Program-made: the position numbers and the translations under genes
DNA from: Eledone cirrhosa
Taxonomy: Eukaryota
Assembly: GCA_964016885.1 (NCBI GenBank)
Contig: OZ024740.1
Span: 203,422,001-203,486,000 of the forward strand
Reading direction: 5' to 3'
DNA length: 64,000 nt
Notes under the pieces: model-generated
Seen by the model: only the letters and a program-made list of their open reading frames with translations
What the model was told of the DNA's origin: nothing
The model's database searches: none
In this document: piece after piece, positions 2,111 to 60,773 of the stretch
Layout: each line of letters starts with the position of its first letter
Numbering within the stretch: the first letter of the stretch is position 1

Positions 2111-2223
2111 TTAAATATCAAAATAAGGAACGTTTACTCCTTCCTCATCTTCTTCAGCTGCTACTTCTGCCTCCTCAGCTACAGCTCCTTCAATCTTGAC
2201 ACTTACGGGTTGCAATGTGGGAT
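2111..2223 (-). CDS. ATP5PF: ATP synthase coupling factor 6, last coding exon (DPTLQPVSVKIEGAVAEEAEVAAEEDEEGVNVPYFDI*)
   Basis: Acceptor TTTCATTTTAG|AT, phase 1, completes the conserved 'DP' after FPAFTWS. TAA at 2113-2111. AATAAA on the minus strand at about 1911-1906. Confidence 0.82.
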
Positions 2224-2394
2224 CTAAAATGAAATATTTAAAAAAATGTAAATAATATTAACAAAAAATAATTGTTTCAGATTTAGGCACAAGGCCATCA
2301 ATTCTGGGGGAGGGGAAAGTTGATTAAATCAACATCAATGCGTTACTGATACTTTATTTTATCGACTCCGTAAGGATGAAAGGCAAAGTTAACC

Positions 2395-5300
2395 ATGGCG
2401 GTATTTAAATTCAGAACGGCAAGGGCTGTAACTCTATGCCACTAAGCATATTGTCCAACACTCTACTGATACTGCCAATACACTGCCTTAACAAAAAATG
2501 ATAATGATGATAAATAAATAAACAAATAAGTAACCAAGTTCCTGAAGTATATTGCTGCTCTGCTCACATCTATAATAAACCTGTCGGACATGGATGTTAT
2601 TGAAGTACTGAAATATTTTAAATAGTGCACCCAATACACACTGTAAAGTGGCCGTGTAGATGTCACGACAAAAAGCACCCAGCCCACACAGTAAAGTGGT
2701 TGTGTAGCTGTCATGACAAAAAGCACCCAGCTCACACTGTAAATGTGGTTGGTGTTAGAAAGAGCATCCAGCAATAGAAATCTAGTCCAAATCAGTTCTG
2801 TGTGAGTGAATCATGGTCGCCAGACCTGATCTCTCACACAGGGACAGCCCGTCCTACCCATGCTAACATGGAAGATGGACATATGATGATGATGATGATG
2901 AGAGTATTTCTAATCAAAAGAACACCAAACTAGAAGTACGTATTCTACCTATGTCGAAGGGGAGATTTAAAAATAAACACAACAAATATTATTTTTTATT
3001 AAGAACTAGAAACTTATAGTGTTCTTGACTAAAATAGAATGCTAAAATGAGAAAAGCAGTGCTACCATTGTAAGCAGTGGTAGCACTGTATCATTAACTT
3101 TTCTGCTACCATATTTCTAATGAAAGGCACTGCCCTATGGTTTTCAGATAACTTGGAGGGATTTAGTAAAATAACTTTCATTATTAAGCTGGTAATGGGC
3201 AGTGGATTGGCAGTATCAATAGAGGGTCAGACGCCATGATTTCCAGCATAGTTACGTCCCTTTACGATCTGAGTTCAAATCCCGCCGAGGTTGACTTTGC
3301 CTTTCATCCTTACGGGTCGATAAAATAAAGTACCAGTAATGCACTGGGTAATTGCTGGCCTTGTGCCTAAAGTAGAAACAATTATTAAGCTGGTATCGGT
3401 AGAGGGACGCTATGATTTGCAGCATAGTTACGTCCCTTTACGGACTGAGTTCAAATCCCGCCGAGGTTAACTTTGCCTTTCATCCTTACGGGGTCGATAA
3501 AATAAAGTACCAGTAATGCACTGGGTATTTGCTGGCTTTGTGCCAAAAGTAGAAACAATTATTAAGCTGGTGTTTGGAACATAAAATTTTCCACATTAAA
3601 ATTACAATGGAATGTTTTTAAAACAAACAGACAGTTTCAGACAGTTTGCTGTTAAAAGAGTTGTGTTTTCTTGTTGCGCTGTGCTCTCAGTTCAACCTCT
3701 CTTGTGTAATGAACTTTGTTGTGCTTAACTTATTCAATATATATAGGTTATGGCTTAGAAGCAAATGACAGCGCTTCTACATGGACCTTTGATATGTTAA
3801 AAATAACAGCCAAATAACCCTAAATTATACTTCATTGTCTCAAACGATACACTGGTCAATGGCATCTGCCAGAAGGCCATGACTGGAATGTCTTTGATAA
3901 TAGGCTGACCTAAAAGATAGAATGCTTAGTCATTGATACAGAAATGGAACAATTACAAAATGAGGTACAGAATTTGGTAAAACCTTTAGTCATCATCACC
4001 ACACCATGATAGAGAGAAAAGAACACTTCAATTTGGCTTAGAAACTAATGATTTAGGAATGTTTTAATGTTTATAAATTAGATATAATGAAATAAATCAA
4101 TAATAAATGACATTTTGTGTAAATGACCGAGGTGTAGAGTAATTAGTGAAAAATAATAGATTAGATGTAGTACATATTGCAATGAGTAATATATATATAT
4201 ATATTTATTATGTACTTCAGGCACAAGCATGGTTGCCTTATTAAAACTAATAATTAGTATATACATTATAGAGTATAGGTACAGACATGACTGTAAATAA
4301 AATGAAGCTCAATCCTATGTAGAATTAGATGGCCTCGAATATTCAGCCACTGTAGATCAGTTAAAAGTCTAACAACTAAACCACTAATAATTTGGCTGGT
4401 CTTTAAGTCTGTCATTGCCATATTTTATATGAAAGACTATCTATGGTTTTCAAATCATTTTGAAAATAATCAAGAATTCAATGAGATTTAGTAATATAAT
4501 CTTCTCGTTATTCAGCTGGTGTTTAGAACATAACTGATACACAGACGCAAGGTGTCACAGAAAAGGATAGAACCTAAAACAACATTTAATAACCACATAG
4601 CCATGCTTGCTATTATAAGTACCTATATTATGTAATTCATTAAAAAGAAAAGGCAATTACTAATAGAAGTCTGACCCTTTCTCCTTTGAGATTTTGAGAT
4701 TTTTCTGTCATGAATAATTCTTTGTAAAGTTGATGTTTATTCTATGAATCAGGAAAAGGAAGGTCAGTACCCACAACTCTTTCTGTGGCCTCAGAGACTG
4801 GTGGGAGTGAGGGAGGAAAGAAGGTATTCTTAAACTAGAGATCTGGTCTAAATGTTTGCAACAGTGTGAATTTTTTTAAAGGTTCCCAAGGCCCAGGTAA
4901 TTGTGCTATCATCATCATCATCACCGTTTTACGTCCGTTCTTCCACGCTAGCATGGGTTAGACGGGTTGTCCTGTTGTGGGCAGTGTCTGGTCGGCTGAC
5001 CATGCCTTGCTCATACAGGAACTGATTTGGCTTGATTTCTACAGCTGGATGCCCTTCCTAACACCAACCTCATTTACAGTGAGTGCTGGGTGCTTTTTTG
5101 TGGCGCCTACACATCCACTTTACAGTGTGGGCTGGGTGCTTTTTTGCCGTGGCACCTCCACGACCACCTTGCAGAGGGGGGTGTGGGGGCATATTGTCTA
5201 TATGCTCCAGCTTGTACCCATGGGAGGTCGGGTACTCTGTATTACTGCGTGGCGCCAGAGGTCACAGTCATGTGTCATCACCTTTGAGAGGTGAAATTGG

Positions 5301-58329: not shown

Positions 58330-58553
58330 GTAACAATGGTCAGATCCAGTTATGGCAATTCTTATTGGAACTACTAACTGACAAGGAGTACCGAGAAATT
58401 ATACAGTGGGTCGGAGATGATGGAGAATTCAAGTTACACAACCCAGAGATGGTGGCCCAGTTGTGGGGCCAACGTAAAAACAAACCAACCATGAACTATG
58501 AGAAACTAAGTCGAGCTCTACGGTACTACTATGACGGAGATATGATTGCTAAG
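58330..58553 (+). CDS. GABPA: GABPA coding exon 8 (ETS domain)
   Basis: [56 protein letters not shown] acceptor, GTAATG donor. Confidence 0.97.
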
Positions 58554-60545
58554 GTAATGACTTAGTTTTTTTATTTCGATGTGTTGCGGGCATGGCTGTC
58601 TGGTTAAAGAATTCACTTCACAAAAGGCTCAGTCTCACTACGTGGCACCTATAGCGTCTTCCACTATATCCTTGAGTTGATCAATGCCTTATGAGTGAAA
58701 ATTCATAGACAGTAACTGTGTAGAAACACCTCATGTATATCATTGTCGCAATCATCATTTAGCATCAGTTGTCCCTGAAGGGTTGGGCAGGTTATCATAG
58801 ACCAAATCAGTACTCAAGTGGAGATACTGACTTCAGGGGGGCTGTATTTTGCTTACTTACATTCCTGCACTCTACCCAGTACATCTCACTGTGTTTATAT
58901 CCTGTAACTTAGTTTAACAAAAAAAAATTGATAATGTAAGTACCAGACTTGAAGAAAATAAGAACTGGGATTAATATGATTGACTAAATCCCTTCAAGAT
59001 GGCGCCACAGTCTAATGACTGAAACCAGTACAAGGATTGTTAAAGACACCTTAAGTTATGTCCCTTAATTTTTTTATTTTTTATTTTACTGTTTAGTCAG
59101 AAGAAAAAGTAGTGCCCAAGACTCTATTCAGGGCCTGTAAGAGTAATGCTAGAGAAAGGGGTGGGGGATATATTTGCAACAGACTGGACTTCACTGAAGG
59201 CACCAAACAGCCAGGTATTAAGCTAAGTGACAGATTAAGTCTTACCTCATAAATAGACTACAGGGAGCTGAACAGACACCACAATGCATATATGTCCATA
59301 TAGTACCTATAGTATGTAGGTCGGTAGTTGAATGAGAGTATGTGACCTACAAAGCCATTGTTCCAGATACTACATACCTTTCTGTTTCATTAAAGACAAG
59401 TTCCCTTATTAAAATCAAGTAAATCTTGATTAAGGTGGGTTCAAATGTCTGGCTATGAATTAATTGAGGAATAATTAGTACAAAATTGCTATTTACAGCA
59501 AAATTATTTTTAAATACTTTTAGGCAGAATAAAAATGTTAAACCAATATAGAAGATGATTTCTGAGGATGTTAAGATTATACACTCTGTAAAATGGTAAA
59601 GTTGGTGCCATGATAAAATACACCTAGTACACTGTAAAGTGCTAACATTAATGCCATGATAAAATGCACCCAATACACTCTGTACAGTAGTTTGCATTAG
59701 AAAAGGAATCCAGTTGTAGAAACCATCTGAAAATATAGAACATAAGAGCAAGACACAGTTTCTGGACCAGTCTAGTCTTGGGCCATAACAACCCTTATCA
59801 GCATAGGAAATATGTAAAATGATGATTATGTTGACTCATTTTTTAATTAAGATTTTAGAAGAAAATATCTAAGAATCATCATCATTTAATGTCTATTTTC
59901 CATGCTTTCAGGGGTTAGTAGGATTGTCTAACTGAAGTTAGATTGGTATGCTGACCTTGCTCATACACTTTATTTTTGGCTTTTTTTCTTTTTACAGCTG
60001 GATGCCCTTCCACATGCCAACCACCTAACAGCATGTACTGGGAGCATGTTATCTTGACTCTGGCACAATCACCTTACAGGGCAGATGTGGTGCTCTTAGT
60101 TGTGGCATTAGCACTGCCATCTTACTGGATGCTTTTTGTTATTGCACCAGCACTACTGCATTACAAGGAAGACAGGATGCTTTTCGTCATAGAATTAACA
60201 TAACCATCTTACAGGGTGGCACCAACACTACCACTTGTCAACACTAGAGTGCTCATTGCATTAATTCTAATGTTTATAGGGGTTTATAGTAGCTTTAATA
60301 ATTGACAGATCACTGAAAATTTCCTGACATTTGTACATTATTATATGTACTATACATGCACCTTTGATGAGTTGTAGTGCACCTGAGTGCTGTACACAAT
60401 TATTTCTTTATTATTAAAGACTTCAATTTTTAATGTAATGCAGTTATAATGCTAATTTGTAACTATTATGCTAATGTGGTTTCATGTGGTACAGGATGTT
60501 AAGACTCATATTTTCTAATGCCAATCTTTTTTTTTGCTTGTTCAG

Positions 60546-60773
60546 GTTCATGGGAAGCGATTTGTGTACAAATTTGTGTGTGACCTTAAGATGCTTCTTG
60601 GTTATTCATCACGGGAACTCAGCAAATTGGTGCCTGCCCACTGTGATAAAAAGGTACAACACATCGAAATATTGCCACAGTGCGTTGAAAAAAAGGTACA
60701 ACACATTACAGACAAGCCTCTATTGGCAGCCATCGCTATGAAACGGGTTGACCAAAAGACACAGACTGTTTAG
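60546..60773 (+). CDS. GABPA: GABPA last coding exon (end of ETS domain and GABPbeta-binding tail)
   Basis: [29 protein letters not shown] resembles human [34 protein letters not shown] acceptor; TAG stop. The summed CDS is 1398 nt. Confidence 0.95.

What the first reader, a model, noticed from the sequence alone, without database searches (positions are those of the whole stretch)
2111..60773. ATP5PF and GABPA are head-to-head in an invertebrate, as in mammals
Seen: hand-spliced exons give a complete coupling factor 6 on the minus strand and a complete GABPA on the plus strand, with outward-facing candidate exon-1 donors only about 340 bp apart (22593 and 22935). Established: in human and mouse, ATP5J and GABPA share a bidirectional promoter, and GABP (NRF-2) activates nuclear respiratory-chain genes. 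Inference: in a probable cephalopod this pairing would date to the last common bilaterian ancestor. It would have survived heavy genome rearrangement and TE-driven intron growth (GABPA intron 1 is about 21 kb), implying a constrained link between the regulator and one of its targets. The ATP5PF exons are invisible in the ORF track.
Basis: partly seen in the sequence, partly recalled or inferred. Interest (0 to 1): 0.85.

Follow-up and report, generated by a model that had tools for sequence, protein, structure and literature searches.

The report
Ancient ATP5PF-GABPA head-to-head gene pair
An octopus genome carries the ATP synthase subunit gene ATP5PF and the transcription factor gene GABPA back to back, as mammals and two bryozoans do, so the pair likely dates to the common ancestor of bilaterian animals and likely still shares one short promoter with predicted GABP sites.

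Summary
Observation confirmed. Three minus-strand coding exons give a 137-aa coupling factor 6 and nine plus-strand exons a 465-aa GABPA (97.8% to Octopus vulgaris), all GT-AG, both single copy. Outward-facing exon-1 donors lie at 22593 and 22935. The GABPA junction is backed by an O. vulgaris gene model, the ATP5PF one weakly by an Argonauta model. No RNA was laid, so start sites are unshown. New evidence for age: two bryozoan-like contigs hold the same head-to-head pair, and accessions are adjacent in three octopods and an abalone (4 of 11 molluscs). The link looks broken in a chiton and probably in heterobranch snails. Three bryozoan-like contigs share an E-box, tandem ETS sites and TTCCGTT; the octopus interval is the only one of 194 windows with the same words. 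With the published mammalian pair, this points to a bilaterian origin. Selection for a regulator-target link is not shown: a tiny unbreakable interval explains retention too. Such ancient pairs are a known kind; this one was not found in print outside mammals. The scan's earlier notes held nothing on it.

The parts
2111..2223 (-). ATP5PF last coding exon with stop codon
   Evidence: in frame, AG acceptor, aligns with the C-terminus of Octopus F6 proteins
13975..14108 (-). ATP5PF coding exon (second half of the F6 domain)
   Evidence: Pfam PF05511 E 6.1e-9; splice sites
17400..17574 (-). ATP5PF exon 2, ATG at 17566
   Evidence: Pfam PF05511 E 1.8e-14; 82-84% to Octopus/Argonauta F6
22594..22750 (-). 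predicted non-coding ATP5PF exon 1 (5' end not fixed; donor GT at 22593)
   Evidence: donor; Argonauta model has a 50-residue extension that aligns weakly here (27%, E 0.022) and ends in the residues and phase that a 22594-to-17574 splice predicts
22594..22934 (.). 341-bp interval between the two outward-facing donors; likely bidirectional promoter plus both first exons
   Evidence: unique within 84 kb; CpG o/e 0.86 against 0.41 for the window, but 12 of 127 windows reach that
22761..22768 (+). E-box GTCACGTG, shared with three bryozoan-like intervals
   Evidence: only match in 64 kb, chance mean 0.56
22805..22814 (+). CATTTCCGTT: ETS-type core on the minus strand, initiator-like (label recalled); same word and strand in two bryozoan-like intervals
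   Evidence: only match in 64 kb, chance mean 0.12
22822..22829 (-). ETS-type site CCGGAAAT, 16 bp from the previous one
22860..22934 (+). predicted non-coding GABPA exon 1 (5' end not fixed; donor GT at 22935); holds a three-codon upstream ORF at 22921
   Evidence: O. vulgaris model CAI9723033.1 has a 24-residue extension matching 22871-22933 (12 of 19 identical, E 2e-9) that runs straight into the start Met
22935..43841 (+). GABPA intron 1, 20,907 bp, repeat-rich
   Evidence: 37.7% has another copy within 84 kb; RT fragments
23085..23092 (+). consensus GABP site CCGGAAGT, 150 bp inside GABPA intron 1
   Evidence: only match in 64 kb
43842..43956 (+). GABPA exon 2, ATG at 43844
44953..45124 (+). 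GABPA exon 3 (GABP-alpha/OST domain start)
   Evidence: PF11620 E 1.1e-11
46626..46710 (+). GABPA exon 4 (GABP-alpha domain)
   Evidence: PF11620 E 2.4e-8
48088..48297 (+). GABPA exon 5
48996..49208 (+). GABPA exon 6 (PNT domain)
   Evidence: PF02198 E 1.1e-23
50019..50087 (+). GABPA exon 7
55743..55826 (+). GABPA exon 8
58330..58553 (+). GABPA exon 9 (ETS domain)
   Evidence: PF00178 E 6.6e-30
60546..60773 (+). GABPA exon 10 with stop codon

Best explanation
ATP5PF and GABPA lie head-to-head in this octopod genome and likely fire from one shared promoter of under 340 bp that was likely inherited from the protostome-deuterostome ancestor. Both genes start with a predicted non-coding exon, so repeat insertion lengthened the first introns (5.0 kb and 20.9 kb here) without touching the core. 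GABP would bind the ETS sites in and beside the core and drive both directions, including its own gene, as reported for mouse; an E-box factor would act on the ATP5PF side. The pair likely persists mainly because a break inside so short a shared promoter would cripple one of two single-copy housekeeping genes; it can be lost when one gene gains its own promoter, as seems to have happened in a chiton and in heterobranch snails. Shown: gene structures, orientation, the bryozoan-like pairs, the motif words. Inferred: start sites, GABP binding, autoregulation, common descent, the cause of retention.
For: Gene structures. GABPA exon-1 junction matches an O. vulgaris model; ATP5PF exon 1 weakly matches an Argonauta model in the right phase. 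Head-to-head F6 and GABPA on metagenome loci L010 and L014, start codons 886 bp and 1837 bp apart against 26,278 bp here; their GABPA groups with the bryozoan Watersipora, SH-aLRT 100, quick tree. Consecutive or near-consecutive accessions in O. vulgaris, O. sinensis, Argonauta hians and Haliotis rufescens. Ten 7-mers shared by three bryozoan-like intervals all fall in three motif blocks (shuffle mean 2.2, maximum 9 of 300); five recur in 22594-23250, reached by 0 of 300 shuffles and by 1 of 194 windows of the 64 kb. Mammalian pair and autoregulation are published (PMC2713978, PMC3121118, PMC2077898, passages); human GABPA has a neighbour 412 bp away (PMC7530604 Table S3; that this id is ATP5PF is recalled).
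Against: No transcript evidence from this species. F6 and GABPA records sit on contigs of different length in Liolophura, Aplysia and Candidula, and 100 locus numbers apart in Bradybaena; H. cracherodii (601 apart), Gigantopelta (541 apart) and O. bimaculoides (different series) share contig length but are undecided. Accession order gives no orientation. Only 2 of 51 GABPA metagenome loci (2 of the 17 with at least 3 kb upstream) show F6; annelid-like L020/L023 have 7.5-8 kb upstream without it. Motif order and spacing differ between octopus and bryozoans and the DNA does not align; the five shared 7-mers are three motifs, the interval end was set after seeing the site at 23085, and no set of other octopus promoters served as control. 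The best GABP site lies in intron 1, outside the donor-to-donor core.
Confidence: 0.75

Rival explanations
1. The pair is kept by selection for co-regulation itself: GABP feedback on the shared promoter ties the level of the respiratory-gene regulator to an ATP synthase subunit, and this circuit with its E-box plus ETS grammar has been conserved since the bilaterian ancestor.
For: Tandem ETS sites with fixed 12-bp offset, an E-box 189-199 bp upstream and TTCCGTT are kept in three bryozoan-like species whose flanks differ widely; the same words cluster at the octopus core; mouse autoregulation is published.
Against: ETS sites mark most divergent promoters whatever their genes (62-87% bound; PMC2077898). 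The link appears lost in several molluscs. Co-regulation by GABP does not need physical linkage (inference).
Confidence: 0.3
2. The genes are divergent neighbours by descent but no longer share a promoter in the octopus: GABPA starts mainly from another site within the 21-kb intron.
For: An O. bimaculoides isoform has a different N-terminal extension that does not map to 22.9 kb; several isoform accessions share the 465-aa protein, so 5' ends vary; other CpG-rich patches exist in the intron.
Against: The O. vulgaris model uses the 22934 donor; the only CCGGAART and GTCACGTG matches of the window lie at 22.76-23.09 kb; part of the alternative extension resembles a repeat word at 39.4 kb.
Confidence: 0.12
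3. Mammals and lophotrochozoans reached the same arrangement independently.
For: No intermediate lineage (ecdysozoan, invertebrate deuterostome) was shown to carry the pair here; losses occur.
Against: Two given genes among about twenty thousand becoming immediate head-to-head neighbours twice is very unlikely (inference); repeated loss of ancient pairs is the documented pattern (PMC3514665, passages).
Confidence: 0.03

Closest known systems
Mouse Gabpa/Atp5j and human GABPA/ATP5PF bidirectional promoter (Patton et al. 2006, PMID 16309857, seen only as a reference title; described in PMC2713978, PMC3121118, PMC2077898)
   Same: Same two orthologous genes, head-to-head, first exons within a few hundred bases, ETS sites at the shared interval.
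   Different: Invertebrate genome; first introns of 5 and 21 kb; AT-rich core with an E-box; binding and autoregulation untested here. The mammalian promoter sequence could not be compared.
Conserved ancient microsyntenic pairs of the 5'-5' type, such as HSPE1-HSPD1 (Irimia et al. 2012, PMC3514665)
   Same: Unrelated genes kept divergent across phyla, short intergenic distance, repeated lineage losses, a mitochondrial function.
   Different: One partner is a transcription factor reported to activate the other; the main text does not name GABP or ATP5, the pair list in the supplement could not be read.
Ancestral chordate bidirectional promoters (Marletaz et al. 2018, PMC6292497)
   Same: Housekeeping bidirectional promoters older than vertebrates (372 inferred ancestral).
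   Different: That set is chordate-level; this pair reaches to lophotrochozoans. Atp5j was not found in the four supplement files held, one of them cut.

Membership tests
ATP5PF / coupling factor 6 | Pfam PF05511 domain above cut-off, short protein with N-terminal leader | tested here: met
   54.3 and 36.6 bits against cut-off 27.9; the O. vulgaris relative hits only F6 chains in the PDB, 10 of 10
GABPA | GABP-alpha (OST), PNT and ETS domains in that order; ETS closest to GABP alpha | tested here: met
   the 97.8%-identical relative scores 182 bits on 1AWC against 144 on ETS1
Bidirectional gene pair | Opposite strands, 5' ends facing, no gene between | tested here: met
Bidirectional gene pair | Start sites less than 1 kb apart | tested here: inconclusive
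   donors 341 bp apart, backed by gene models of two other octopods; no RNA reads laid
Bidirectional gene pair | One DNA segment drives transcription both ways | not testable with these tools
   needs reporter or CAGE data
Conserved ancient microsyntenic pair | Same adjacency in distant phyla | tested here: met
   octopod (window), bryozoan-like L010 and L014, mammals
Conserved ancient microsyntenic pair | Orientation conserved | tested here: met
   head-to-head in the window and in 2 of 2 contigs that hold both genes; unknown for accession-only cases
Conserved ancient microsyntenic pair | Correlated expression of the two genes | not testable with these tools
   no expression data available
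GABP-autoregulated promoter | GABP binds ETS sites and mutation lowers activity | not testable with these tools
   sites present; binding untested; a GABP beta gene in this genome was not searched

The most novel reading that the evidence does not exclude
GABPA-ATP5PF is a bilaterian-age autoregulatory module: a transcription factor for respiratory-chain genes has stayed wired to one of its targets on a single promoter whose E-box plus tandem-ETS grammar is still readable in octopods and bryozoans, while everything around it was scrambled or inflated by repeats.
Probability: 0.3. Interest if true: 0.72.

Novelty: new member of a known kind. Interest (0 to 1): 0.5.

Why it matters
It moves a well-studied mammalian bidirectional promoter back to the protostome-deuterostome split and offers a natural experiment: lineages that keep the pair (octopods, bryozoans, probably abalone) and lineages that seem to have lost it (a chiton, heterobranch snails) allow a direct test of whether ancient head-to-head pairs are kept for co-regulation or simply because they cannot be broken. 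It also suggests that GABP control of mitochondrial genes, known from mammals, has a matching cis-regulatory trace in spiralians. The kind of arrangement is known and the adjacency is implicit in public octopus annotations, which limits the surprise.

Tried and rejected
Sequencing-run search for 22000-23500: no RNA holder listed; no reads were laid, so junctions and start sites in this species stay open. Search for GABPA or F6 in prokaryote genome contigs and viral contigs as host contamination: nothing. Global DNA alignment of the octopus interval with L010 and L014: no meaningful alignment. YY1-like motif AANATGGCGG: 6 matches against 7.25 expected, not enriched; one perfect match at 23238-23247 left unexplained. 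CCGGAART, GTCACGTG and CAKTTCCGTT are not over-represented in the window as counts; only their position is notable. The E-box plus CAKTTCCGTT spacing pattern, drawn from the window itself, has 3 matches in the genome against 0 for the reversed control, too few to read. CpG content alone does not single out the interval (12 of 127 windows). Pfam scan of the 8 longest upstream frames of 18 of the 51 metagenome loci (144 frames) named no neighbouring gene, only a reverse-transcriptase fragment in L023 and one weak hit; these loci are uninformative, not negative. No long frame recognisable by eye in 10 kb on either side of the window (no family scan). The careful tree did not finish; the quick tree is used. 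Accession order could not be tested outside molluscs because no F6 records from other phyla were returned. The scan's earlier notes held nothing relevant.
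Full report
1. The observation. The window lies on a 443-Mb contig of a 3.0-Gb genome. On the minus strand, coding exons 17566-17400, 14108-13975 and 2223-2111 join in frame to 137 residues with canonical splice sites. Two of the three match Pfam ATP-synt_F6 above its cut-off, the closest named proteins are F6 of Octopus bimaculoides, O. vulgaris and Argonauta hians at 82-84% for exon 2, and the genome holds one copy. 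On the plus strand nine exons between 43844 and 60773 join to 465 residues with GABP-alpha, PNT and ETS domains, 97.8% identical to O. vulgaris/O. sinensis GABPA over the same 465 residues, again one copy. The animal is therefore an octopod. The two start codons are 26,278 bp apart. Each sits a few bases behind an acceptor (17574, 43842), so each gene needs an upstream exon. Outward-facing donors lie at 22593 (minus) and 22935 (plus).

2. Are those the real first exons? No RNA reads were laid, so this rests on gene models of relatives. The O. vulgaris model CAI9723033.1 carries 24 extra residues before the usual Met; they match the translation of 22871-22933 (12 of 19 identical, E 2e-9) and continue into the Met exactly as a 22934-to-43842 splice predicts. 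The Argonauta F6 model has 50 extra residues ending in VAKM, which is what a 22594-to-17574 splice gives in that frame; the alignment to 22595-22750 is weak (27%, E 0.022). Against: an O. bimaculoides isoform has another extension that does not map here, so further 5' ends may exist. The 341-bp interval must hold both first exons and both start sites, or the transcripts overlap.

3. Is the pairing old? (a) Accession order. F6 records were returned for 11 mollusc species that also have a GABPA record (6 of the 120 listed GABPA hits were looked up, chosen by species). Accessions are consecutive in O. vulgaris (CAI9723033/34 and 35), O. sinensis (XP_029636140/41 and 42) and Argonauta (GAB1602409 and 10), and two apart in Haliotis rufescens (XP_046338899 and 901-906): 4 of 11. 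Four share a contig length but not neighbouring numbers: O. bimaculoides (different series), H. cracherodii (601 apart), Gigantopelta (541), Bradybaena (100 locus tags). Three lie on contigs of different length: Liolophura, Aplysia, Candidula. Near numbers imply neighbours (inference); distant RefSeq numbers do not imply separation, as the two abalones suggest. Orientation is unknown in all these. (b) Metagenome contigs. A scan with the GABP-alpha exon gave 51 loci; 17 have at least 3 kb upstream. An F6 profile found F6 in two, L010 and L014, in both on the opposite strand upstream of GABPA, confirmed by Pfam. Start codons are 886 and 1837 bp apart, the F6 introns of L010 fall at the same places as in the octopus (read), and each has a candidate non-coding F6 exon-1 donor near the middle. 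GABPA of L010, of L012 (96% identical in DNA to L014) and of L016 groups with the bryozoan Watersipora at SH-aLRT 100 in a quick tree of 43 rows. The other 49 loci are uninformative; annelid-like L020/L023 show no F6 in 7.5-8 kb upstream, a weak negative given intron sizes. (c) Mammals. The human and mouse pair, its shared promoter and GABP autoregulation are described in PMC2713978, PMC3121118, PMC2077898 and PMC3127848 (passages); PMC7530604 Table S3 lists a neighbour 412 bp from human GABPA (one supplement row; its identity as ATP5PF is recalled). Octopods, bryozoans and mammals share their last ancestor at the protostome-deuterostome split (established knowledge), so one origin there with later losses is the simplest reading.

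4. The promoter. Three bryozoan-like intervals (L010, L014/L012, L016) differ widely but keep GTCACGTG, then 189-199 bp later two ETS cores 12 bp apart ending in CCGGAAGT, then TTCCGTT. Ten 7-mers are common to all three, all in these blocks (shuffles: mean 2.2, maximum 9 of 300). Five of them occur in 22594-23250 of the octopus; 0 of 300 shuffles and 1 of 194 sliding windows, the promoter itself, reach five. In the window GTCACGTG (22761), CATTTCCGTT (22805) and the two CCGGAART sites (22822 minus, 23085 plus) are each the only ones in 64 kb. Limits: the five words are three motifs; the interval end was chosen after seeing 23085; order and spacing differ and the DNA does not align across phyla; these motifs are common in promoters generally (recalled for E-boxes; 62-87% of human divergent promoters bind GABP, PMC2077898) and no promoter control set was available. 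The words confirm where the promoter is; they are only suggestive of a conserved grammar. L016 ends 300 bp upstream of its E-box, so its F6 is not seen.

5. How it most likely works. One short promoter drives both genes; GABP would bind its ETS sites and feed back on its own gene, as in mouse. Both first exons are predicted non-coding, so repeats could pile into the first introns (5,019 and 20,907 bp; 37.7% of the GABPA intron has another copy within 84 kb; RT fragments) without moving the core. Retention is most simply explained by the small, indispensable target: a break in a few hundred bases would separate one single-copy housekeeping gene from its promoter. Selection for co-regulation may add to this but is not shown, and the apparent losses in molluscs show the link is dispensable.

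6. What is known. Ancient head-to-head pairs are a described class, with HSPE1-HSPD1 as a mitochondrial example and with repeated losses (PMC3514665, passages). 275 old microsyntenic blocks survive in the squid Euprymna; that study counts blocks of three or more genes, so pairs are outside it (PMC9023564, passages). Nine full-text searches (listings seen) and supplement searches of PMC6292497 (four files, one cut), PMC7530604, PMC9023564 and PMC13508932 found no report of this pair outside mammals; PMC3815023 does not name either gene (passages). The supplement of PMC3514665, which surveyed Lottia among 17 genomes, could not be read and may list it; lists that use gene ids only would be missed; subscription papers were not searched.

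7. Verdict. A new member of a known kind. Interest 0.5.

Noticed in passing
window 2395-5492 and 5491-8591: A 3.1-kb tandem duplication at 99.5% identity inside the last ATP5PF intron; recent duplication or assembly artefact.
   Followed up: no
window 51567-55219: Two frames (155 and 324 aa, 52370-53812) split by one stop, between 560-bp inverted repeats at 98% identity, inside a GABPA intron. Looks like a Penelope-type element by recalled motifs; Pfam gave no RT match.
   Followed up: partly
window 8525-11329 (-): LINE-type element with endonuclease and reverse-transcriptase frames in the last ATP5PF intron; fragments of the same family recur at 15.6-16.9, 25.4-28.4 and 50.5-51.5 kb.
   Followed up: partly
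window 22921-22932 (+): Three-codon upstream ORF at the end of the predicted GABPA exon 1.
   Followed up: no
window 60675-60710: The octopod GABPA C-terminus has a 16-residue internal duplication after the ETS domain, absent from chiton, abalone and brachiopod proteins; it lies next to the region that contacts GABP beta (recalled).
   Followed up: no
L010-L014, L016: Bryozoan-like GABPA genes lack the phase-0 intron that splits the GABP-alpha domain in the octopus and most other loci. A GCGCA word follows the ETS pair in all three species, like half an NRF-1 site (label recalled).
   Followed up: no
window 23238-23247 (-): A perfect YY1-like word pointing towards ATP5PF from inside GABPA intron 1; could mark a further upstream ATP5PF start overlapping GABPA.
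   Followed up: no
window 56940-57250: CpG-rich short tandem array of unknown origin in a GABPA intron, the most CpG-dense patch of the window.
   Followed up: no
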